DNA from: the human T2T-CHM13v2.0 reference genome, Homo sapiens
Length of the DNA: 64,000 bases
Reading direction: 5' to 3' (one strand)
Assembly: GCF_009914755.1 (NCBI RefSeq)
Contig: NC_060933.1
Shown: piece after piece, positions 1 through 16,725 of the stretch
Numbering within the stretch: position 1 is the stretch's first letter
How the letters are laid out: every line of letters begins with the position of its first letter
Position numbers and translations under genes: made by a program
The notes under the pieces: generated by a model
Seen by the model: only the letters and a program-made list of their open reading frames with translations
Told to the model about the DNA's origin: nothing
Databases searched by the model: none

Positions 1-3690
<3,690 letters not shown>

Positions 3691-3753
3691 TATGATGTTA
3701 GCTGGTTATTTTGCTCGTTAGTTGATGCAGTTTCTTCCTAGTCTCCATGGTCT

Positions 3754-4770
3754 TTACATTTTGGCATGATTTTGCAGCGGCTGGTACCAGTTGTTCCTTT
3801 CCATGTTTAGCGCTTCCTTCAGGAGCTCTTTTAGGGCAGGCCTAGTGGTGACAAAATCTCTCAGCATTTGCTTGTCTGTGAAGTATTTTATTTCTCCTTC
3901 ACTTATGAAGCTTAGTTTGGCTGGATATGAAATTCTGGGTTGAAAATTCTTTTCTTTAAGAATGTTGAATATTGGCCCCCACTCTCTTCTGGCTTGTAGG
4001 GTTTCTGCCGAGAGATCCGCTGTTAGTCTGATGGGCTTCCCTTTGAGGGTAACCCGACCTTTCTCTCTGGCTGCCCTTAACATTTTTTCCTTCATTTCAA
4101 CTTTGGTGAATCTGACAATTATGTGTCTTGGAGTTGCTCTTCTGGAGGAGTGTCTTTGTGGCGTTCTCTGTATTTCCTGAATCTGAACATTGGCCTGCCT
4201 TGCTAGATTGGGGAAGTTCTCCTGGATAATATCCTGCAGAGTGTTTTCCAACTTGGTTCCATTCTCCCCATCACTTTCAGGTACACCAATCAGACGTAGA
4301 TTTGGTCTTTTCACATAGTCCCATATTTCTTGGAGGCTTTGCTCATTTCTTTTTATTCTTTTTTCTCTAACCTTCCCTTCTCACTTCATTTCATTCATTT
4401 CATCTTCCATTGCTGATACCCTTTCTTCCAGTTGATCGCATGGGCTCCTGAGGCTTCTGCATTGTTCACCTAGTTCTCGAGCCTTGGTTTTCAGCTCCAT
4501 CAGCTCCTTTAAGCACTTCTCTGTATTGGTTATTCTAGGTATACATTCTTCTAAATTTTTTTCAAAGTTTTCAACTTCTTTGCCTTTGGTTTGAATGTCC
4601 TCCCGTAGCTCAGAGTAATTTGATCGTCTGAAGCCTTCTTCTCTCAGCTCGTCAGAATCATTCTCCATCCAGCTTTTTTCCGTTGCTGGTGAGGAACTGC
4701 GTTCCTTTGGAGGAGGAGAGGCGCTCTGCATTTAAGAGTGTCTAGTTTTTCTGTTCTGTTTTTTCCCCAT
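3754..4770 (-). pseudogene. L1 ORF1p, full length (339 codons) but broken by an in-frame TGA
   Basis: ATG at 4770-4768. ORF track pieces 4381..4731 and 3754..4314 are in one frame, with a TGA (CGA->TGA) at 4383-4381. Confidence 0.92.
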
Positions 4771-5675
4771 CTTTGTGGTTTTATCTACTTTTGGTCTTTG
4801 ATGATGGTGATGTACAGATGGGTTTTTGGTGTGGATGTCCTTTCTGTTTGTTAGTTTTCCTTCTATCAGACAGGACCCTCAGCTGCAGGTCTGTTGGAAT
4901 ACCCTGCCATGTGAGGTGTCAGTCTGCCCCTGCTGGGGGGTGCCTCCCAGTTAGGCTGCTCGGGGGTCAGGGGTCAGGGACCCACTTGAGGAGGCAGTCT
5001 GCCCGTTCTCAGATCTCCAGCTGCGTGCTGGGAGAACCACTGCTCTCTTCAAAGCTGTCAGACAGGGACACTTAAGTCTGCAGAGGTTACTGCTGTCTTT
5101 TTGTTTGTCTGTGCCCTGCCCCCAGAGGTGGAGCCTACAGAGGCAGGCAGGCCTCCTTGAGCTGTGGTGGGCTCCACCCAGTTCGAGCTTCCTGGCTGCT
5201 TTGTTTACCTAAGGAAGCCTGGGCAATGGCGGGCGCCCCTCCCCCAGCCTGGCTGCCGCCTTGCAGTTTGATCTCAGACTGCTGTGCTAGCAATCAGCGA
5301 GACTCCGTGGGCGTAGGACCCTCCGAGCCAGGTGTGGGATATAATCTCATGGTTCGCCGCTTTTTAAGCCGGTCTGAAAAGCGCAATATTCGGGTGGGAG
5401 TGACCCGATTTTCCAGGTGCGTCTGTCACCCCTTTCTTTGACTCGGAAAGGGAACTCCCTGATCCCTCGCGCTTCCCAGGTGAGGCAATGCCTCGCCCTG
5501 CTTCGGCTCGCGCATGGTGCGTGCACCCACTGGCCTGCGCCCACTGTCTGGCACTCCCTAGTGAGAGAAACCCGGTACCTCAGATGGAAATGCAGAAATC
5601 ACCCGTCTTCTGTGTCGCTCATGCTGGGAGCTGTAGACCGGAGCTGTTCCTATTCGGCCATCTTGGCTCCTCCCC
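4771..5675. promoter_or_regulatory. L1 5'UTR: sense promoter (- strand, intact YY1 motif CAAGATGGCCG) and antisense promoter firing on + strand
   Basis: CpG-rich 905-bp UTR. + strand splice donors after 5331 (CAG|GTGTGG), 5416 (CAG|GTGCGT), 5479 (CAG|GTGAGG) and 5560 (CTA|GTGAGA). Confidence 0.85.
5226..5441 (+). CDS. L1 ORF0, intact 71 aa (MAGAPPPAWLPPCSLISDCCASNQRDSVGVGPSEPG...RFSRCVCHPFL)
   Basis: ATG 5226 in good Kozak context (GCAATGG). 216 nt to TGA. Matches the primate L1 antisense ORF0, with donors at +106 and +191. Confidence 0.85.
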   Translation: MAGAPPPAWLPPCSLISDCCASNQRDSVGVGPSEPGVGYNLMVRRFLSRSEKRNIRVGVTRFSRCVCHPFL

Positions 5676-8582
5676 TGATTTCTGCCTTAATTTCATTATA
5701 TACCCAGGAGTCATTCAGGAGCAGGTTGTTCAGTTTCCATGTAGTTGTGTGGTTTGAGTGGGTTTCTTTATCTTGAGTTATAATTTGATTGCGCTGTTTT
5801 CTGAGAGACTGTTATGATTTCAGTTCTTTTGTATTTGCTGAGGAGTGTTTTACTCCCAAGTACGTGACTGATTTTAGAGTAAGTGCTATGTGCTATGTGT
5901 CGCCAAGAAGAATATATATTCCATTGTTTTTGGGTGGAGAGTTCTGTAGATATTTATCAGGTCCACTTGATCCAGAGCTTAGTTCATGTCCTGAATATCC
6001 TTGTTAATTTTGTCTTGGTGATCTGTCTAATATTGACAGTGGGGTGTTAAAAGTCTCCCACTATTATTGTGTGGGAGTCTAAGTGTCTTTGTAGGTCTCT
6101 AAGAACTTGTTTTATGAATCTGGGTGCTCCTGTGTTAGGTGCATATATATTTAGGATAGTTAGCAGTTCACATTGAATTGAACCCTTTACCATTATGTAA
6201 TGCCCCTCTTTGTCTTTTTTGATCCCTGTTGGTTTAAAGTCTATTTTGTCAGAAACTAGGATTGCAGCCCCTGCTTTTTTCTGCTTTCCATTTGCTTGGT
6301 ATATTTTCCTCCATTCCTTTATTTTGAGCCTATGTGTGTCTTTGCATGTGAGATGGGTCTCTTAAATCCAGCACGTTGATGAGTCTTGACTCTTTATCCA
6401 GCTTGCCATTCTGTGTCTTTTAATCGGGGCATTTAGCCCATTTACATTTAAGGTTAATATTGTTGTCTGTGAATTTGATCCTGTTATGATGGTAGCTGGT
6501 TATCAGACTTGGTGATGTAGTTGCTTTATAGTTTCATTGGTCTTTGTACTTCAGTGTGTTTTTGCAGTGGCTAGTGGTGGTTTTTCCTTTCTATATTTAG
6601 TGCTTCCTTCAGGAGCTCTTGCAAGGTAGGCCTGGTGGTGACTAATTACCTCAGCATTTGCTTCTCTGAAAAGTATTTTATTTTTCCTTAGCTTATGAAG
6701 CTTAGTTTGACTGGAAATGAAATTCAGGATTGGAAATCCTTTTCTTTAAGAATATTGAATAATGGCCCCCAATCTCTTCTCGCTTGTAGGGTTTCTGCTG
6801 AGAAGTTTGCTGTTAGTCTAATGGGTTTCCCTTTGTAGGTGATCTCCCCTTTCTCTCTGGCTGCTGTTAACATTTTTTTTCCCTTCATTTTGACCTTGGT
6901 GAATTTGATGATTATGTGTGTTAGGGCTGATCATCTCATGGAGTATCTTACGAGGGTTCTTTGGATTTCATGAATTTGAATGTTGGCCTATCTTGTTAGG
7001 TTAGGGAAGTTTTCCTAGATGATATCCTGAGGTATGTTTTCCACCTTGGTTCTGTTCTCCCCATCTCTTTCAGGTATCCAAGTCAGTCATAGGTTCGGTC
7101 TTTTTACATAATCCCAAAGTTCATGGAGGTTTTGTTTCTTTTCATTCTTTTTTCTCTCGTCTTGTCTGCCTTGTCTTATTTCAGCAAGATAGGCTTTAAG
7201 CTCTGAAATTCTTTCCTCTGCTTGGTCAGTTTGGCTGTTGATACTTATGGTTGCATTGTGATGTTCTCAGGTTGTGTTTTTCAACTCCATTAGGTTATTT
7301 ATGTTCCTTTCAAACTAATTATTCTGGTTAACAGCTCCTGTAATGTTTTATCATGGTTCTTAGCTTCTTTGTATTGGGTTAGAACATGTTCCTTTGGCTC
7401 AGCTAAGTTCATTGTTACCCACCTTCTGAGGCCTACTTGTGTCAGTTCATCCATCTCCACCTCCGCCCAGTTCTGTGCTCTTCCTAGAGAGGTATTATGA
7501 TCATATGGAGAAGAGGCACTTTGGCTTTTTGAATTTTCATTGATTCTTTCTCATCTTTGTGAGTTTACCTAGCTTTGATCTTTCAGTTTGCGAGGACCTT
7601 TTTGTTGATGCTGTTATTGTTGTTGCTTTCTGTTTGTTTTTCTTTTGACATTCAGGCCCCTCTTCCGGAGGGCTGCTGTGGTTTGCTGGGGGTCACTCCA
7701 GACCCTATTCACTTGGGTCCCTTCTGCACCTGCAGGTATCAACAGTGGAAGATGCAGAATAGCAAAGATGGCTGCCTGCTACTTCCTCTGGCTGGGATCT
7801 TCGTCCCAGAGGGGCACCAACCTGATGCCAACAGGAATGCTCCTGTATAAGTTATCTGGCAACCCCTGTTGGGGTCTCACCCAGTCTGGAGGCAGGGGTT
7901 CTGGGATCTGCTTAATGAAGCATTCTGGCTGCCCCTTGGCGGAGCGGGTGCGCTGTGCTGTGGCGAATCTCAATCATCTGGACTGCCTGGATTCCTCAGA
8001 GCTGGCAGGGGGAAAGTCTAAGTCTGCTAATCTGTGAATACTGTGGCTGCCTCTCCCACTAGAGGCTCAGTCCCAGCGACATCAGAGTTCTGTCCCTAAA
8101 CCCCTGGCTGCAGTTGCTGAAATTCCTGCAGGAAGGTCCCACCCAGTGAGGAGGGATGGGTTAGGGTTCCGCCTGAAGAGGCAGTCTGGCCATGATCTGC
8201 CATAGCCATAGCCACTGTGAGTGCTGTGGGGAATTCCATCTGGGTCCAAACCATCTAGTCTTCCTGGCACTGGCAGGGGAAAATTGGCAGACTGGAGCTG
8301 CAGTGATGGCTGCCACCCCTTGCCCCTACTCCCCGGGAACTCAGGCATCTTAGGCAAAAGGCAGGGTGGTGATGATGACCTCCCCTTCCATTAGGAAGTT
8401 GGTAGTCGTAGGTAGTCACCAGCCCATTGGCTGCTGAGAGGCCACCAAGAGGCTGCCGAGAATCTGGACAGCTCTGCACTTGGGACCCAAGGCCCTGGTG
8501 GCATGGGCTCATTGGGGGACCTCCTGATCTGTGGGTAGCACGGATCCGTGGAAAAAGCGTGGTTTCCCAGGCAGGGTAGTAG

Positions 8583-10034
8583 TGTGTCCAGAATTGGTGC
8601 GTTCTTGGTCTCACTGACTTCAAGAATGAAGCCACGGACCCTTGCGGTGAGTGTTACAGTTCTTAAAAGCGGCGTGTCCGGAGTTTGTTCCTTCTGATGT
8701 TCAGATGTGTTTAGAGTTTCTTCCTTCTGGTGGATTCGTGGTCTCGCTGGCTTCAGGAGTGAAGCTGCAGACCTTCGAGTGTTACAGCTCATAAAGGCAG
8801 TGTGGATCCAAAGAGTGAGCAGCAGCAAGATTTATTGCAAAGAGTGAAAGAACAAAGCTTCCACAGTGTGGAAGGGGACCCAAGGGGGTTGCCACTGCTG
8901 GCTCTGGCAGCCTGCTTTTATTGTCTTATCTGGCCCCACCCACATCCTGCTGATTGGTCCATTTTACAGAGAGCCGATTGGTTTTACAGAGAGCTGATTG
9001 GTCCATTTTGACAGGGTGCTGATTGGTGCGTTTACAATCCCTGAGCTAGACACAAAAGTTCTCCAAGTCCCACTAGATTCTTTAGATACAGAGTGCTGAT
9101 TGGTGCATCCACAAACCCTGAGGTAGACACACGGTGCTGATTGGTGTGTTCACAAACCTTGAGCTAGATACAGAGTGCTGATTGGTGTGTTTACAATCCC
9201 TTAGCTAGACATAAAGGTTCTCCAAGTCCCCACTAGACTCAGGAGCCCAGCTGGCTTCACCCAGTGTATCCCGCACAGGGGCCACAGGTGGAGCTGCCTG
9301 CCAGTCCCGTGCCCTCCACCAGCACTCCTCAGCCCTTGGATGGGACTGGCTGCCGTGGAGCAGGGGGCAGAGCTCGTCGGGGAGGCTGTGGCTGCGCAGG
9401 AGCCCACCGCGGGGGGAGTGAGGGGAGGGAGGGGGGGAGGGTGGGGGGGAGTGGGCGAAGGGGGGAGGGCGGGGAGGAGGGGGGAGGGCGGGGAGGAGGG
9501 AGGAGGGCGGAGGGAGTGGGGGGAGGGGGGAGTGGGGAGTGGGGGGAGGGCGGGGGGGAGTGGGGGGAGGGCGGGGGAGGCTCAGGCATGGTGGGCTGCA
9601 GGTCCCCAGCCCTGCCGCACAGGGAGGCAGCTAAGGCCCGGTGAGAAATTGAGAGCAGCGCCGGTGGGCCAACACTGCTGGGGGACCTGGTGCACTGTCC
9701 GCGGCTGCTGGCCTGGGTGCTAAGCCCCTCACTGCCGGGCTGGCGGGGCTGGCTGGCCGCTCTGAGTGCGGGCCGCCAAGCCCACGCCCACCCGGAACTC
9801 TAGCTGGCCCGCAGGCGCTGCACGCAGCCCCAGTTCCCGCCCACGCCTGTCCCTCCACACCTCCCTGCAAGCTGAGGGAGCCGGCTCTGGCCTTGGCCAG
9901 CCAAGAAGGGGACTCCCAAGGTGCAGCGGCGGGCTGAAGGGCTGCTCAAGCGCCGCCAGAGTGGGCGCCGAGGCCAAGGTGGCGCGGAGAGCGAGCCACG
10001 ACTGCGAGGGCTGCCAGCACACTGGCACCTCTCA
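8583..10034 (-). mobile_element. Solo LTR12C (ERV9 LTR) with 4-bp TSD GTAG
   Basis: - strand starts TGAGAGGTG and ends CCAATTCTGGACACA. GTAG at 8579-8582 and 10035-10038. Seven tandem CCAAT boxes 8953-9185, GATA motif ~8925-8932, AATAAAA TATA-like box 8916-8922. Confidence 0.93.
9411..9580 (+). repeat. G-rich low-complexity expansion inside LTR12C
   Basis: ~170 bp of GGGGGGAGTG/GGGAGGGCGGGG units. Confidence 0.9.
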
Positions 10035-10606
10035 GTAGGTCGATCACTCACCATTTCCCTTGGCTGGTGGTAGGAGCTCGCATTACTCTGTGTGGCTCCC
10101 AGGTGGGCCGTCGCACCACCCTGCTTTTCCTTGCTCTCTGTGGGTTGTGCCAGCTGCCTAGTCAGTCCCAATGAGAGAACTTGGATACCTCAGTTGCCGG
10201 TGCAGGATTCACTCATTGTTTTTGTTCTTCTTGGTGGGGGGCCTCCGACCACAGCTGTTTCTAGTCGGCCATCTTGGCCCGCCCTGTTTTTCTTTACTTA
10301 TTTTCAAATGAGGAAAGATCTGGACAAATTCAGTGCTTTCCGCTGGTTCAGATGTGTGAGTTGTGCGAGCTTTGCTTGCTTTTTGTATTTGCAACATTGG
10401 TGTACATATCATCACTTGTACTTTCCCGAGGGTTGTGTGGGGCGATAGAAATAAACATATCTACATAGTATAAGAGTATCCTTCAATTCCACTTATTGAG
10501 AGCATGCCCAGAAAATACCATGAGGTGGTAGAGAAAAATGTGCTTTTTCCCAGGTTGATTTTTAATTTGCAAAGAGTAATAATAGTATGAGCATCTCCCT
10601 ACTCTT

Positions 10607-10610
<4 letters not shown>

Positions 10611-10678
<68 letters not shown>
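10611..10678 (+). repeat. Compound microsatellite (GA)14(GT)20 replacing an Alu tail
   Basis: Read directly. Confidence 0.95.
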
Positions 10679-10680
<2 letters not shown>

Positions 10681-10956
10681 GATGGAGTCTGGCTCTGTCA
10701 CCCAGGTTGGAGTGGGGTGGTGCGATCTCGGCTCAGGATCAAATGATTCCTCTGCCTCAGCCTCCTGAGTAGCTGGAACTACAGATGTATGCTACCATGC
10801 CCAGCCAATTTTTGTAATTTTTGTAGAGACGGGGTTTCACTATTGGTCAGGCTGGTCTCGAACTCCTGACCTCAGGTGATCCATCTACCTCAGGTGATCC
10901 ACCTGCCTCGGCCTCCAAAGTGCTGGGATTACAGGTGTGAGCCATCGCACCCTGCC
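10679..10956 (-). mobile_element. Alu (S-type) with internal deletion and 18-bp tandem duplication
   Basis: Alu sequence; ACCTCAGGTGATCCAYCT repeated at 10869-10904. Confidence 0.9.
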
Positions 10957-11676
10957 TAGTGTGTTTCTTTTGACTAAAGATACATATATTTTGTTGTACG
11001 TTGTCCTTAAATGCAGACCAGCTACGGATTCGGGCCTTCTCATTAAGAAATACCAAATGTCTTCTAACATGGGAATATAAATAAATTTGCTATGTTTTAA
11101 CACTGTATTGAAAGATGATATGTTTTATCTTCATCATGTCTCTTTTCTAAATGTGACATTTTTTTAGGCCTCCTGGCTAACGTATCTTAACTGTGATGGA
11201 ATTTTCTCCTGCCCTGTTGCGTATTTCCTTTGATAATTTTTGCTAATGTTATTAGTGAAAAATGGCAGTAATCATCATGCATGATTACTGTGGGTCTTTT
11301 TTCCCCTCCTCTTGTATTACATTTCCTGAAGGCATTGTGCCATTATTGGTTCTCTTCTCTCCCCTTTCCCGTTTTTGACTGCTATTTTCTGCATGTTTCA
11401 GTTTTTTGAATTGTTACAGGAAAATTGTGTATATCCATGTATCTGTATGGATGCAGGGGTTGTGGTTGTGGTTTGAGAACATTAATGTTCTAAATCTCTA
11501 AGGAGCGGAACTCCTTGCTCCCATACTAATTTTCATCCATGTTCAACAACTGTCTCCGTATCTCTTTTATTCCTTCTTTCTTTTAAGACATTTTATGTGA
11601 ATGAATGACTAGTTTAAAGTTATAGGTAAAAATAAGTTCCATTAAGAAATACAATCTTCAAAATATTATGTAAGTA

Positions 11677-12014
11677 CAATCGGCCTTTCATATCCATGGA
11701 TTCCATATCCACGGATTCAACCAATCATGAATTGAAAATATCAGGTGAAGAAAAATGAGTGGTTGCATCTGTACTGAACGTGTACAGACTTTTTTCTTGT
11801 CATTATTCCCTAAACAATACAGTATAACATTATTTGCATAGCATGTACTTTGTATTAGGTATTATAAGTAATCTAGAGATGACTTAAAGTATTTGGATGT
11901 GCATAGATTATATTCAAAACTACATCATTTTATATAAGGACTTGAGCATCTGTAAATTTTCATATTCAAAGTGGGTCTTGAAACCATTCTCCCATAGATA
12001 ATAAGAGACTACTG
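11677..12014. mobile_element. MER2 (Tigger-family DNA transposon)
   Basis: CAATCGGCC...GGATTCAACCAA start, CTG end; paralogous to 19266-19603. Confidence 0.75.
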
Positions 12015-12828
12015 TTTATAGTATATTTTGATGTAATAGTGCTTTATAAATATTTCTCGGTTCAAATTAATTATACAAAAGAATTCCCAGTTTGTATAAT
12101 CTGTATCACACAGGATTCACAACCACAGCAATCTGGAAACCTCTATCTCAAAGGTGTAGTTCTCCTAGACTCTTAGTGCCATCATTACCACCACCAGTTC
12201 ATTTGTCCTCCTGCTTATCAGTTTCATCCTGGGTAGGTTCGAAGGACTGGATTTTTCTTGTGACTTTCTGACTCTTTTACCTCATCAGTTCCTTCAAGCT
12301 GAGTTAGAGGAGTCACAAGTATCCCAGCCCAGGACCCTGAGGTTACAAACTAGAATTGGCAGTTGTGCTTTAAGGAACTTTGGTTTGAAAACTTAAGTTT
12401 GCCCTTTGGGATTCTTTTTAATATATTTAAAGTTCTGTATAGTAATATAAAATGAAAGGTTGACGTACCCTTTGTTCAAAACTGTCTAATAACTATAGCT
12501 GATCTTACCACTTGTTAATTCTTGAAACTGAAGTGTTTACTTAAATAAAAGGTTGTACTATGTATATCCATGGTTTTTATTACTATAAAGCTACAAAAGA
12601 AAATTAATATGTATCTGGCTTTGAAAGTCATAGTCGTTGTATCAATACTTTCTGTGTGTATGTGATAAATATTAAATATGTCATTATTTCTTTTATTAAT
12701 AAGTTTGCCTGCAGTACAAATAACAGATGCAAAACAGGATGCCAATCTGTAACCTTAGATGAACACAATTATTTAACTGAGATGATCTTTATCCATACTT
12801 TTCTCTATTTATTGCTTGCTTTGCACAG

Positions 12829-12991
12829 GAAGGAACTGCAGGAGCTGCAGAATCTTTACAAACAGAACAGTACACATACAGCCCAGCAAGCAGAGCTGAT
12901 CCAGCAGCTTCAGGTTCTCAATATGGACACACAAAAAGTACTGAGAAATCAGGAAGATGTTCACACAGCTGAAAGTATATCATATCAAAAA
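12829..12991 (+). CDS. CNTLN: Centlein coding exon (163 nt, phase 2->0): KELQELQNLYKQ...ESISYQK
   Basis: Acceptor ttgctttgcacAG, donor GTATGC. Coiled-coil peptide recognised as centlein; joins the next exon in frame. Confidence 0.93.
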
Positions 12992-13600
12992 GTATGCTTT
13001 TATTCTGTAATAAAGATGTAAATGTTTATGTATGAACTTATGAACATATATAGAATTCAGATTTTTTCAAATTTCAGCATTTAATTTTTACTTCCTTTTA
13101 CATGTGTTTCCTCAAAATTTAGAAGTGAAGGATGGTTCAATTTGATAACATTTAAAATTTTTTGAATTTTCTTTATGGTAATTAGAGCTGAATCACTTAA
13201 AATATAGATACAAACTTACTCTATAGGGTATTATTTTTATAAATTGGCATTCAGACAGCTTCTGTGAAACATACTAGGAGTATAGTCTCAAAACTGGAAT
13301 GGAATTCCTCGGCCTGCTATTACAAGAAATTATTTTGTCAAGTATGGCAGACTTTCATTGTAAAATTTGTACATTATTTTTCGGCAAATCTTCACAAATA
13401 CAAAGGGGATTGCTGAGGAGGGCTTTAGGATCAATATTTTCCAGGATTTTTCTCTGTTTATTTTGTGTGTTTCTGTTCAGTAGTCTTTTACTTTACAGTT
13501 GTTTTAGGAGCCTTTCAAGAAGGTTTACCCAAGTATTTAGGTGTGCTAACTGACTCAGCAGCAATAATTTAATCTACTAATTAAAAAAAATACCTTTATT

Positions 13601-13951
<351 letters not shown>

Positions 13952-14429
13952 TTAATAAATAATGTAGTTTATATAGTGTTATTCTCATTTAATGATAGTA
14001 GTTGAGGCAAGTGAGGCTTAGAGAGGTTAAATAATACACAGTTCATATTATCCCTCTAGAATTACTGGATTTTTACTTCTGATCTTACTTTTCTAAAAAA
14101 TCACTGTGAAAATCGAATGTCTATAATTAACATGAAATTAATTACCTTAAAACTTAAACACATATTTTTAAATGATGCTTTGTAACAGTGGTTTTCAGTG
14201 TGTGTTTTGTGTTGCCTTTGTGTTTTCCCAAGGACCTAGATGATAGCAAGCAGGAAGATACAGTCTTCCACTTCAGCTAGAGCAGTGCTGCCTTTTTGTT
14301 TTATGGGGTGACATTGCCCACTGTGTTTTTTGTTTCTAAAGCACGTTCCATTGCTAAAATGATTTGAAACACTGTACTTTATTAATACTTGTTAATTGTT
14401 ATTAATACTAATTAATTGTTTTCTCTTTT

Positions 14430-15570
14430 TCCCCCATTGATGACTTTCTGTTGCTTGGAACATTTTTTTTCTGTTGCTTGAAACATTTTTTTCCCCTCTT
14501 GGCTTCCATTGTACTATAATTGGGTGGCTTTCTTCCTTCAGTTTTTAGCTGTCCCTTTTTAATTTCTTTGTGGTCCTCCCCAGTCTCCATGTCCTGTAAA
14601 GTGTGAAAATGTTCCAGGCCTCACTCTTAGGATCTCTCCTTTTTTTTCTGTTTATCCTCACACCCTAGGTGATTTCATCTAATCACCTTGACTTTCAAAG
14701 TTACACTGCAGGTTCAATATCCCTTATCTGAAGTGCTTGGAACCTGAAACCTGAAGTGCTTCACATTTTTAGCTTTTGAGATTTTGGAATATTTGCATTA
14801 CATTTACTGGCTGAGCATCCCAAATCTGAAAAATTGAAATCTGAAATGCTCCAATGAGCATTTCCTTTGAGCATCATACTGGTGCTCAAAAATGTTTTGG
14901 ATTTTGGAGCATTTCAGATTTTTTGATTTGTATGCTCTACCTGTGTCTATAGGCTGATGATTCCCAAATTTGTAAATTTGTTTATCTACCTTGGATCTCT
15001 TCTGTATACTCTAGGAAAGAGTATATCTAATTGCCTACTTAATATCTCTTCACTTGGATTCCTAATGGGCATCTCATACTGAACGTGTTCAAAACAAAGC
15101 TATTGCCTTTTATGTTTTCAGTACAGGTGCAGAATTCGACTACTTCCCACCACCCTTGCTGTCACCATTCTGTCCAGGCCACTATCACATATTACCTGGA
15201 TTATTGCAGTAACTTGCCAGTTTCTTTGTTCTGATCTTAAGCCTTTTGACATAGGTGCCAGGATATTATTGCCAAAACTTTGTGAGTCAAATCAGATCAC
15301 TGCTCTCTTCAAGTCCCTCCAGTGGTTTCCCAGACCATTAAAAATAAAAAACCTAAGTTCTTACTACAACCTGTGGGACTCTACATGTTCCGACTCTACA
15401 TTACCTCTCTGATCTCATCTTTGCCTTCTTTTCTTATTCACTCCAGCAACACAAACCATGTTTTTATTCCTTGAACATAACAGGTATTTAACCTTTCAAG
15501 GTAATACTTTCTTCCAGTGCCTGAAAGCTTTCCTGCCCAGTTATCTGCATAGATACCATTTTACTTCCTT
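14430..15570 (+). mobile_element. L2 fragment interrupted by Tigger4a
   Basis: Degenerate L2 RT/3' motifs (GCTGATGATTCCCAAAT, ATTACCTGGATTATTGCAGT); boundaries approximate. Confidence 0.6.
14709..14943. mobile_element. Tigger4a/MER46A (Zombi) MITE
   Basis: CAGGTTCAATATCCCTTATCTGAA start, CTCTACCTG end. Confidence 0.75.
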
Positions 15571-16649
15571 TATTCTACAACTCTTACAGTTTAAAATTAG
15601 TTGATAGCAGACATTAAATGGTAGAAGCAAGAAAAGAATGATGTATGTTGTAATAGTAGTAGAGGGAAATATGGGAGCATAACTGGGGGCCTGTTCCAAG
15701 ACTAAGGATAAAGAAAGCTCTCCTTGATGGTGTCATACCAGTAATACTTTGCTGAGAAGATAAGATATCAAAGAGACAAATTAATTTCTGATAACTTTTC
15801 CAAATGGACTCTAGTTCAAACCAGAAATTCCCTAGTGTATGTCTTTACTAAATTGGGAGAAGTAGAGCTTATATGCCCCTATTTGGCGAACTTGCCGTAA
15901 CCTAAATTGTGATCTGGGGTACATTTTGAAACCGTAAACACTTTTCTTCTAGGATTATGTTTATCCCTTCCAAGAATCATTATAGAAAATGAGAGATGTA
16001 AATGATGGGGTTATGTTGTGTTTGTGAATGATATTGAGGCAGAATAAAAATAAAAGAGAACAAACTGAGATGTGCTAACCTAATAATTGGCTTACTTTTC
16101 CTTGTGTTTAGTCTGTTTTTTGTCATTTCTTTCTCTAGATTGAATATCATTTTTCTTTTATTTTTGTTTCTCAGAGATTACCTTGGGGAGTGTGGGAGTA
16201 GGGGGCTTCACTGATACTTAAGTTGATTCTCACTTTGAAATTGTACCTCCCACTGTAATATTTTAATTTTGTAGTTGTTTTAGATGCTTGTAGTTGTTCA
16301 TACAGTTTTCATTAGTATCCTCAACTAGACTCAATTTGAAAATATTCTTCTTATTTATTTATTCTTTATAAATTTTGTCTACAGTTAGTAGACATTACAA
16401 TTGTTTTGGTGGCTGTATGTAGTTATTTTAAAAAACAAAGTCTTTTATAATTCCATCTCCCAGAGGCAAATACTGTGAACATTTTGAATATTTCACTTTT
16501 AAAAATGCATCTTAACATATTTGTTAGCACACTAGTATTTTTCACTTTAACATTATATTTTAAAAAATCATAACATATAACTATTTTAGATGGTCATATA
16601 ATTTATTTTTCTACTGTTGGTTATATATGTTATTTGTTTTACTATTGTA

Positions 16650-16666
16650 AATAAAGCTGCAATAAA
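16650..16666 (+). terminator. Tandem AATAAA signals, candidate poly(A) site of a truncated CNTLN isoform
   Basis: AATAAA at 16650-16655 and 16661-16666 in an ancient antisense L1 relic; use inferred. Confidence 0.5.
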
Positions 16667-16725
16667 CATTTCTTTGTCAGTTCAGACTATTACTATTCAT
16701 TATAGTGTACTGACTACACATATGT

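What the first reader, a model, noticed from the sequence alone, without database searches (positions are those of the whole stretch)
5226..12991. Intact L1 ORF0 is exactly in frame with the next CNTLN exon: predicted ORF0-centlein fusion protein
Seen: the L1 has dead ORF1 and ORF2 but an unbroken 71-aa ORF0 (5226-5441) on the gene's sense strand. Its second donor (CAG|GTGCGT after 5416, +191, phase 2) leaves AG. The next CNTLN exon starts at 12829 with the single G needed to complete the codon, giving AGG (Arg). The junction TTTTCCAG|GAAGGAACTG reads ...VTRFS-R-KELQELQ..., with no stop through all six exons. The first donor (5331, phase 1) is out of frame. Known: the L1 antisense promoter drives chimeric transcripts, and ORF0 can splice to neighbouring exons, mainly in pluripotent or demethylated cells. 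Inference: an ape-lineage internal promoter could make an N-terminally truncated centlein with a 63-aa ORF0 leader. Combined with donor read-through, it could instead make a 127-aa mini-protein ending VCFYSVIKM. A phase match alone has about a 1-in-3 chance per donor.
Basis: partly seen in the sequence, partly recalled or inferred. Interest (0 to 1): 0.85.

Follow-up and report, generated by a model that had tools for sequence, protein, structure and literature searches.

The report
Known L1 antisense promoter inside CNTLN
A dead L1 retrotransposon in a CNTLN intron carries a backward-facing promoter that published catalogues already list as a tumour- and stem-cell-specific start site for CNTLN transcripts, and its small ORF0 does line up in frame with the next exon, but that match is what chance gives one time in three and no protein has been shown.

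Summary
The sequence observation is correct in every detail. ORF0 is 5226-5441, 71 aa. Donors lie after 5331 (phase 1) and 5416 (phase 2). Exon 12829 begins with codon position 3. The 5416->12829 join stays open through all six exons. Read-through gives 127 aa.

The element is a minus-strand L1PA2 with broken ORF1 and ORF2. Its antisense promoter is already catalogued as a CNTLN start site:
- EST BP352672 from the TE13 carcinoma line, also flagged as previously known and seen in H1-ESC PacBio data (Criscione 2016 Table S1).
- TEITbase TE_20350, "L1HS-CNTLN": 593 TCGA tumours, 0 adjacent tissues, 1 GTEx sample, with RT-qPCR in NCI-H520.

The protein claim is unresolved:
- Donor use is unknown.
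- The strongest donor (5479) lies after the ORF0 stop.
- The catalogued start site maps to about 5102-5278, so it may lie downstream of the ORF0 ATG.
- An intact ORF0 and a 1-in-3 phase match are both chance-level.

Other routes to truncated centlein exist: an in-frame ATG at 5349, and the first ATG inside the exon (12923), which is in the CNTLN frame.

Verdict: a real, already catalogued chimeric transcript, with a fusion protein that is plausible but unproven.

The parts
1..5675 (-). Full-length L1PA2 that runs off the window start. It has a 5'UTR, a broken ORF1 and a broken ORF2.
   Evidence: The 5' terminal L1 motif ends at 5675. RVT_1 and the L1 ORF1 domains are found on the minus strand. 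ORF1 has two premature stops and ORF2 has two frame changes. RepeatMasker calls it L1PA2 on the minus strand in Criscione 2016 Table S1.
4774..5675 (-). L1 5'UTR of about 902 nt, holding the sense and antisense promoters.
   Evidence: The ORF1 start codon region lies at about 4773. The stretch holds 32 CpG, observed/expected 0.44. The RefSeq 'enhancer' 5359-5964 overlaps its 5' end (hub table).
5078..5278 (+). Antisense-promoter output zone. It holds the published ASP forward-primer site (5078-5097) and the inferred interval for the catalogued start site (5102-5278).
   Evidence: The primer matches exactly and only once (primer from Honda 2020). The EST BP352672 span of 40101 bp must end inside exon 45202-45378 (plus arithmetic). 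The TEITbase start site at 17290647 agrees with the EST start at 17290648.
5226..5441 (+). Intact ORF0 of 71 codons. Its start context is gcaATGG and it is the first ATG downstream of 5050.
   Evidence: The published ORF0 reverse primer, which includes the stop codon, matches 5420-5441 with 1 mismatch. There is no Pfam family.
5349..5351 (+). Second ATG, in the ORF0 frame (residue 42). It is the only other ATG before donor 5416.
5329..5337 (+). Donor SD1, CAG|GTGTGG, with the exon ending at 5331. It is phase 1 and out of frame with exon 12829.
   Evidence: It scores 7 of 9 consensus matches with U1 duplex -7.4 kcal/mol.
5414..5422 (+). Donor SD2, CAG|GTGCGT, with the exon ending at 5416. It is phase 2 and in frame with exon 12829 through the junction codon AGG.
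   Evidence: It scores 8 of 9 consensus matches with U1 duplex -8.1 kcal/mol.
5477..5485 (+). Third donor, CAG|GTGAGG, with the exon ending at 5479. It lies after the ORF0 stop and is the strongest of the four by U1 pairing.
   Evidence: It scores 8 of 9 with U1 duplex -11.9 kcal/mol. Only 5416 and 5479 reach 8 of 9 between 5050 and 12828.
12829..12991 (+). Next CNTLN coding exon. Its first base is codon position 3. Its first internal ATG (12923-12925, aatATGG) is in the CNTLN frame. Its own donor, AAA|GTATGC, is weak.
   Evidence: Hub annotation.
12992..16684 (+). Read-through extension of the exon, annotated as 12829-16684 in other transcripts. It adds 9 codons and a stop at 13019-13021. AATAAA signals lie at 16650 and 16661.
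   Evidence: Hub annotation.

Best explanation
A coding-dead, full-length L1PA2 lies antisense in a CNTLN intron, 7.15 kb upstream of exon 12829-12991. When its 5'UTR is derepressed, as in pluripotent cells and many carcinomas, its antisense promoter fires on the gene's strand. The transcript uses a donor in the L1 5'UTR and splices to the next CNTLN exon. This makes a cryptic alternative CNTLN transcript that lacks all upstream exons.

That much is shown by published catalogues. The coding outcome is my inference.

The transcript pool is probably mixed:
- With donor 5416, the ORF0 frame continues into centlein. The leader is 63 aa if the start site lies upstream of 5226. It is 22 aa, from ATG 5349, if the start site lies between the two ATGs.
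- With donor 5331 and a start site downstream of 5226, the first AUG of the mRNA is the CNTLN-frame Met at 12923. This gives a truncated centlein with no L1 leader.
- With donor 5479, or with 5331 plus ATG 5226, only a short ORF0-type peptide is made. The CNTLN exons then sit behind a premature stop.

The frame match at 5416 is real, but it is a chance-level property with no sign of selection.
For: Shown here:
- The anatomy and all frames.
- L1 identity and its broken ORFs.
- Published ASP and ORF0 primers match once each, at 5078-5097 and 5420-5441.

Shown in print:
- Criscione 2016 Table S1 (supplement rows read) lists EST BP352672 at chr9:17290648-17330749, + strand.
- That row gives L1PA2 on the minus strand, gene CNTLN, and cell line TE13 (cancerous). 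Both 'previously identified' and 'Detected in PacBio RNA-seq' read yes.
- TEITbase Table S3 (supplement rows read) lists TE_20350 as L1HS_5end, start site chr9(+):17290647, CNTLN, chimeric.
- Its counts are 593 TCGA tumours, 0 tumour-adjacent samples and 1 GTEx sample, with a score of 334.7.
- The TEITbase main text (passage read) reports RT-qPCR detection of L1HS-CNTLN in NCI-H520. It was below detection in BEAS-2B.

Locus identity:
- The gene-start offset places the start site at about 5338.
- The 40.1-kb EST span places it at 5102-5278.
- The next TEITbase start site, 3189 bp downstream and labelled L1P3b_5end, falls in the older L1 5'UTR segment at 8100-8578.

Splice signals:
- 5416 and 5479 are the only + strand GT sites with at least 8 of 9 consensus matches between 5050 and 12828.
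- Only 22 of 3745 GT sites in the whole window reach that score.
Against: - I could not see the EST sequence, the PacBio isoform or any junction counts. Donor choice, and whether ATG 5226 is transcribed, are therefore not established.
- BP352672 is absent from Criscione's Table S3, which lists ESTs with an ATG-started peptide of at least 100 aa (one search found it only in Table S1). This may argue against an ORF0-started fusion in that clone. It could equally reflect a 5'-open ORF being excluded by their rule.
- TEITbase predicts 'Non-coding, Other'.
- My hg19-to-window mapping assumes no net indel across 40 kb.
- The equality of hg19 and GRCh38 numbering here is recalled. It is supported only by the 1-nt agreement of the two catalogues.
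- Pinson 2022 (passage read) found only 2.9% of L1 chimeric transcripts spliced at their 5' end in brain and glioma. Much antisense output may therefore never reach the exon.
Confidence: 0.8

Rival explanations
1. Transcripts start upstream of 5226, use donor 5416, and are translated into a 63-aa ORF0 leader, one Arg, and N-terminally truncated centlein at biologically meaningful levels.
For: ATG 5226 is the first AUG for any start site between 5050 and 5226, and it has purine -3 and G +4. Donor 5416 scores 8 of 9 and is in frame. The published ASP forward primer used to detect ASP-driven ORF0 transcripts lies upstream at 5078-5097. ORF0-exon fusions are reported at 57 loci (Criscione 2016 text citing Denli 2015). 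The locus is flagged 'previously identified', and ORF0 fusions are among the sources for that flag.
Against: The primary antisense start is reported at about L1 nt 400, which is about window 5276 and downstream of the ATG. The strongest donor is 5479. BP352672 is not among the ESTs with an ATG-started peptide of at least 100 aa. TEITbase does not call the transcript chimeric-truncated. I found no proteomic or ribosome-profiling evidence.
Confidence: 0.2
2. The chimeric transcript is effectively non-coding for centlein. It uses 5479, or 5331 together with ATG 5226. It yields at most a 58-71 aa ORF0-type peptide, and it is degraded or acts only by transcriptional interference with the host gene.
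For: 5479 has the best U1 pairing, -11.9 against -8.1 and -7.4 kcal/mol. ORF0 then stops at 5439-5441, before the junction. TEITbase gives a 'Non-coding' label. Most L1 antisense transcripts are reported to lack a predicted peptide of at least 100 aa (73%).
Against: After the short upstream ORF, the next AUG is the CNTLN-frame Met at 12923 in a good context, so re-initiation could still give truncated centlein. U1 duplex energy is a crude predictor of donor use.
Confidence: 0.35
3. The main product is the 127-aa mini-protein. It arises from ASP start, donor 5416, exon 12829, failure to splice at 12991, and polyadenylation at about 16684.
For: Donor 12991 is the weakest of the six annotated donors, at 6 of 9 and -4.2 kcal/mol. 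An annotated alternative exon spans 12829-16684 (hub table). AATAAA lies at 16650 and 16661. The frame gives 127 aa. TEITbase's 'Other' coding class would fit a short novel ORF.
Against: EST BP352672 extends 40.1 kb, beyond 16684, so at least that clone spliced onward. This reading needs both ATG 5226 and donor 5416, and neither is shown.
Confidence: 0.1
4. The L1 is not a promoter here. The L1 sequence is an exonized piece of canonical CNTLN pre-mRNA, or the EST is truncated.
For: ESTs are not always full length. The antisense strand of L1 contains cryptic splice sites, as noted in Criscione 2016.
Against: Criscione removed loci that had independent EST support for exonization. An independent RNA-seq start-site model places the start within 1-2 nt of the EST 5' end. 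Expression in 593 tumours against 0 adjacent and 1 GTEx sample differs from what an exonized form of a host transcript would be expected to show.
Confidence: 0.05

Closest known systems
TEITbase TE_20350 'L1HS-CNTLN' and EST BP352672 'L1PA2-CNTLN' (Criscione 2016 Table S1)
   Same: This is the same locus. It is a minus-strand young L1 in CNTLN with a + strand start site at chr9:17290647/8 and a chimeric splice into CNTLN exons. It is reported in tumours, the TE13 line and H1-ESC.
   Different: Neither source, in the parts I could read, gives the donor used, the reading frame or any protein. TEITbase names it L1HS after the 5'-end model 'L1HS_5end', while RepeatMasker calls it L1PA2.
ORF0-proximal exon fusion transcripts and proteins (Denli et al. 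2015, known to me only through citing papers)
   Same: The ORF0 is driven by the antisense promoter and has two internal splice donors that can join a downstream host exon. Young primate L1s (L1HS to L1PA8) carry it. Here both donors are present and one is in frame.
   Different: Use of the in-frame donor, inclusion of the ATG and translation are not shown for CNTLN. Whether CNTLN is among the 57 reported fusion loci could not be checked, because the paper is not held.
L1-MET and L1-BCAS3 (L1 antisense promoter acting as an intronic alternative promoter in cancer)
   Same: Each is an intronic, antisense-oriented young L1 whose antisense promoter splices to the next host exon. Each is linked to L1 hypomethylation and tumours.
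   Different: The host gene differs. For CNTLN there are no functional data on the truncated product or on interference with the host gene.

Membership tests
L1 antisense-promoter chimeric transcript (LCT) | A young full-length L1 (L1HS to L1PA8) with an intact 5'UTR, antisense to the host gene. | tested here: met
   The 5' end is at 5675 and the 5'UTR is about 902 nt. L1 protein domains lie on the minus strand. RepeatMasker calls it L1PA2.
L1 antisense-promoter chimeric transcript (LCT) | [quoted passage not shown] | tested here: met
   The EST start and the TEITbase start site agree within 1-2 nt. They map to window 5102-5278, or about 5338 by the cruder offset. That is L1 nt about 340-575. 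The mapping is inferred, not aligned.
L1 antisense-promoter chimeric transcript (LCT) | A splice from an L1 donor to an annotated host exon. | tested here: inconclusive
   The EST spans 40.1 kb and passed Criscione's exon-overlap filter. TEITbase requires a junction read on the first exon. The donor coordinate itself was not visible to me.
L1 antisense-promoter chimeric transcript (LCT) | Dependence on L1 promoter hypomethylation or derepression. | not testable with these tools
   This L1 was not found in the parts of Lanciano 2024's methylation table that were held. Between rows chr9:17263044 and 17539561 there is no entry.
ORF0 fusion protein | An intact ORF0 with its ATG in a good context and no upstream ATG. 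| tested here: met
ORF0 fusion protein | A splice donor inside ORF0 whose phase matches the downstream exon. | tested here: met
   Donor 5416 is phase 2 and exon 12829 needs 1 nt. Donor 5331 does not match.
ORF0 fusion protein | The transcript start site lies upstream of the ORF0 ATG. | tested here: inconclusive
   The start-site interval 5102-5278 straddles 5226. The primary antisense start is reported at about L1 nt 400, which is about window 5276.
ORF0 fusion protein | An observed in-frame junction and translation (ribosome profiling or peptides). | not testable with these tools
   There are no RNA-seq, Ribo-seq or proteomic data here. Four paper searches that required CNTLN together with ORF0 or L1 terms found no such report. 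A fifth, looser search listed only two CNTLN papers among the 40 rows shown.

The most novel reading that the evidence does not exclude
In the hundreds of carcinomas and the pluripotent cells that fire this L1PA2 antisense promoter, donor 5416 is used and the mRNA is translated. The product is a hominid-specific ORF0-centlein chimera with a 63-aa or 22-aa L1 leader. Its junction peptide would be a recurrent tumour-restricted epitope. Its truncated centlein part would lack everything encoded by the upstream exons and could disturb centrosome linker function.
Probability: 0.12. Interest if true: 0.6.

Novelty: already known. Interest (0 to 1): 0.25.

Why it matters
The locus is one of the most tumour-restricted L1-initiated transcripts in TEITbase, with 593 tumours against 0 adjacent and 1 normal sample. 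It was one of seven chosen there for validation in lung squamous carcinoma. If the in-frame donor is used, the L1-centlein junction would be a shared tumour-specific peptide, and the product would be a truncated centrosomal protein. That is a testable lead for cancer immunology. As genome biology it is one more case of a well-described mechanism, and the frame match carries no evidence of selection.

Tried and rejected
Paper searches:
- ORF0+CNTLN gave 0 papers.
- CNTLN + 'antisense promoter' + LINE-1 gave 0.
- CNTLN+L1PA gave 1, the TEITbase paper.
- C9orf39+LINE-1 gave 1, which was irrelevant.
- CNTLN+transposable gave 9, of which only TEITbase was relevant.
- ORF0/SD1/SD2 gave nothing on donor usage.
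- CNTLN with LINE-1, L1HS or retrotransposon required any two of the four terms. Of the 40 rows listed, only TEITbase and one paper on human contamination hold CNTLN.

- Denli 2015 and Matlik 2006 are not held. I could not learn which earlier source listed L1-CNTLN, or whether it is one of the 57 ORF0 fusions.
- The TEITbase primer table S10 lies beyond the stored part of the file.
- A search for this L1's hg38 end coordinate in Lanciano 2024's tables found no row for it. The start site could therefore not be placed to the base.
- The supplement of Adami 2025 was not seen, because paper reading closed.

Arguments I dropped:
- I considered using the absence of BP352672 from Criscione's peptide table to infer the donor. 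I rejected this as ambiguous, because a 5'-open in-frame ORF would also be excluded by their rule that a peptide must begin with Met.
- I considered the TEITbase label 'Non-coding, Other' as evidence against an in-frame fusion. I down-weighted it, because 0 of the 9 CNTLN rows seen carry any truncated label. This suggests incomplete assembly of this long gene.

The Pfam scan of ORF0 found no family.


Full report
**What is in the sequence**

The region 1-5675 is a full-length L1 on the minus strand.
- Its 5' terminal motif ends at 5675.
- The minus strand encodes RVT_1 (E 3.8e-46) and the three L1 ORF1 domains.
- ORF1 carries two premature stops in an otherwise continuous frame.
- ORF2 changes frame twice in its endonuclease part, near 3455 and about 3320. 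It is then open for 1088 codons to the window start.

On the + strand, which is the sense strand of CNTLN, ORF0 runs from ATG 5226 to the stop at 5439-5441, giving 71 aa.
- Two published L1 primers place it in the canonical position.
- The antisense-promoter forward primer matches 5078-5097 exactly.
- The ORF0 reverse primer, which includes the stop codon, matches 5420-5441 with one mismatch.
- Each primer hits once in the window.
- ORF0 has no Pfam family.

Candidate donors:

| Exon ends at | Sequence | Position relative to ORF0 |
|---|---|---|
| 5331 | CAG\|GTGTGG | 106 nt, phase 1 |
| 5416 | CAG\|GTGCGT | 191 nt, phase 2 |
| 5479 | CAG\|GTGAGG | after the stop |
| 5560 | CTA\|GTGAGA | after the stop |

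Frames:
- The six annotated exons are open only in the frame where base 12829 is codon position 3.
- The 5416->12829 join makes an AGG codon and reads 364 aa without a stop.
- The 5331 join stops at residue 58.
- Read-through of the exon's own donor gives 127 aa ending VCFYSVIKM.

**Is it more than chance? No**

- The phase match is 1 in 3.
- With four disabling lesions in about 4.7 kb of ORF1 plus ORF2, a 216-nt ORF would remain open about 83% of the time. This is my estimate.
- About 3200 genic ORF0 loci are reported (Criscione 2016 main text).

**What is already in print about this locus**

Criscione et al. 2016 (PMC4908685). I read main-text passages, section 7 and rows of Table S1.
- Table S1 lists EST BP352672 at chr9:17290648-17330749 (hg19), + strand.
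[quoted passage not shown] - 'Detected in PacBio RNA-seq' (H1-ESC) reads yes.

TEITbase (PMC13184619, 2026). I read passages and rows of Table S3.
- TE_20350 is listed as L1HS_5end, start site chr9(+):17290647 (GRCh38), CNTLN, chimeric.
- Its coding prediction is 'Non-coding, Other' and its tumour-specific score is 334.7.
- It is expressed in 593 TCGA tumours, 0 tumour-adjacent samples and 1 GTEx sample.
- The text reports RT-qPCR of 'L1HS-CNTLN': detected and upregulated in NCI-H520, below detection in BEAS-2B.

The two start coordinates agree within 1-2 nt. I recall that hg19 and GRCh38 share numbering on this part of chr9p, and the agreement itself supports that.

**Is it this L1?**

- The Table S1 gene start (17134988) set against the hub's gene start (window -150322) places the start site at about window 5338. 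It places the EST end at about 45438.
- That end lies 60 nt past the end of exon 45202-45378. At least 60 bp of net indel must therefore lie upstream.
- The 40,101-bp EST span is the better constraint. If it has no net indel, the EST must end inside that exon, so the start site lies at 5102-5278.
- The next TEITbase start site lies 3189 bp downstream and is labelled L1P3b_5end. It then falls in the older L1 5'UTR antisense segment at 8100-8578.
- The window holds only one young L1 5'UTR.

I regard the identity as secure and the start-site position as good to about +/-90 nt.

**What remains open is the protein**

Three things decide it, and none is visible to me.

(a) Start site relative to ATG 5226.
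- The interval 5102-5278 straddles the ATG.
- Criscione 2016 puts the primary antisense start at about L1 nt 400. That is about window 5276, roughly 50 nt downstream of the ATG.
- Against this, the primer used to detect antisense-promoter-driven ORF0 transcripts lies upstream, at 5078-5097.

(b) Donor choice.

| Donor | Consensus matches (of 9) | U1 duplex (kcal/mol) |
|---|---|---|
| 5331 | 7 | -7.4 |
| 5416 | 8 | -8.1 |
| 5479 | 8 | -11.9 |
| 5560 | 6 | -4.6 |
| Six annotated CNTLN donors | 6 to 8 | -4.2 to -11.6 |

- Only 5416 and 5479 reach 8 of 9 between 5050 and 12828.
- Only 22 of 3745 + strand GT sites in the whole window reach that score.
- The in-frame donor is therefore credible, but the post-stop donor looks stronger.

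(c) Translation. I found no data.

- Between 5050 and 5416 the only ATGs are 5226 and 5349, and both are in the ORF0 frame.
- The first ATG inside exon 12829-12991 is at 12923-12925. It is in the CNTLN frame and in a good context.

This gives the following outcomes:
- Start site at or upstream of 5226, with donor 5416: a 63-aa leader fused to centlein.
- Start site between 5227 and 5349, with donor 5416: a 22-aa leader fused to centlein.
- Start site downstream of 5226, with donor 5331: truncated centlein with no L1 leader, from the first AUG of the mRNA.
- Donor 5479, or donor 5331 with ATG 5226: a short peptide followed by a premature stop. Re-initiation at 12923 is the only route to centlein.

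The 127-aa form is structurally possible.
- Donor 12991 is the weakest annotated donor.
- AATAAA signals lie at 16650 and 16661, before the annotated end at 16684.
- BP352672, however, extends well beyond 16684.

**Evidence that leans against the full fusion**

- BP352672 is not in Criscione's Table S3, which lists ESTs with an ATG-started peptide of at least 100 aa (one search found it only in Table S1). This is ambiguous, because a 5'-open ORF would also be excluded.
- TEITbase does not label the transcript chimeric-truncated. None of the 9 CNTLN rows I saw has a truncated label either, so the assemblies are probably incomplete.
- Pinson 2022 (passage) found only 2.9% of L1 chimeric transcripts spliced at the 5' end in brain and glioma.

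**Comparison with what is known, and novelty**

- The mechanism is the textbook L1 antisense-promoter chimeric transcript (Speek 2001 and later work). Its ORF0 fusion variant was described by Denli 2015. I know that paper only through citing papers, because it is not held.
- The CNTLN case itself is catalogued twice and was flagged as known before 2016.
- The only element I did not find in print is the explicit in-frame reading. Four searches that required CNTLN with ORF0 or L1 terms, and the 40 rows shown by a looser fifth search, turned up no such report. Supplements are not covered by the search, and Denli's list of 57 fusion loci could not be checked.

**Limits**

- There are no primate genomes, RNA-seq, CAGE or proteomic data here.
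- Paper reading closed. The supplement of Adami 2025 (L1 CRISPRi in hiPSC) and the paper PMC6581058 were not read.
- TEITbase Table S10 (primers) lies beyond the stored part of the file.
- The exon's number and its residue position in centlein could not be determined. What the truncation removes is therefore stated only as 'all upstream exons'.

**Verdict**

- The fusion protein is plausible at about 0.2 for the full 63-aa form. I put the chance that any L1-initiated centlein-frame product is translated at about 0.4, which is my judgement.
- The feature is already known in kind and as a locus. Interest is low to moderate, and lies mainly in its possible value as a tumour-antigen lead.

Noticed in passing
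window 8100-8578 and 10037-10286 (minus-strand older L1 5'UTR), interrupted by 8579-10036 (+ strand): An older L1 5'UTR has its 5' end near 10286 and an ORF0-like ATG at 8306-8308. It is split by an LTR that looks like LTR12, with repeated CCAAT-box units at 8949-9211; the family name is recalled and was not tested. The RefSeq 'enhancers' at 9381-10426 lie on this LTR. TEITbase lists a second tumour-restricted CNTLN start site here: TE_20351, L1P3b_5end, 3189 bp downstream of TE_20350, with 159 tumours, 0 adjacent and 1 GTEx sample.
   Followed up: partly
window 9409-9580: A G-rich tandem array (units such as GGGGGAGAGGGGGGAGGGC, 8.4 copies) lies inside the LTR. It has G-quadruplex-type composition on the + strand.
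   Followed up: no
window 5676-~6100: The sequence directly beyond the L1PA2 5' end is itself the antisense of an older L1 ORF2. The L1PA2 therefore inserted into an older L1 of the same orientation. Part of this stretch is unmasked in NCBI's file.
   Followed up: no
window 12989-12997 and 16650-16684: The donor of exon 12829-12991 (AAA|GTATGC) is the weakest of the six annotated donors. Two AATAAA signals precede the annotated alternative 3' end at 16684. This fits intronic polyadenylation giving a short centlein isoform that ends VCFYSVIKM.
   Followed up: partly
window 10611-10678: A perfect compound microsatellite, (GA)14.5 followed by (GT)20.
   Followed up: no
literature, PMC6581058: A paper on human contamination in bacterial genomes mentions CNTLN together with L1HS in its text (search listing only). 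It may bear on L1-derived sequence in an annotated CNTLN protein.
   Followed up: no
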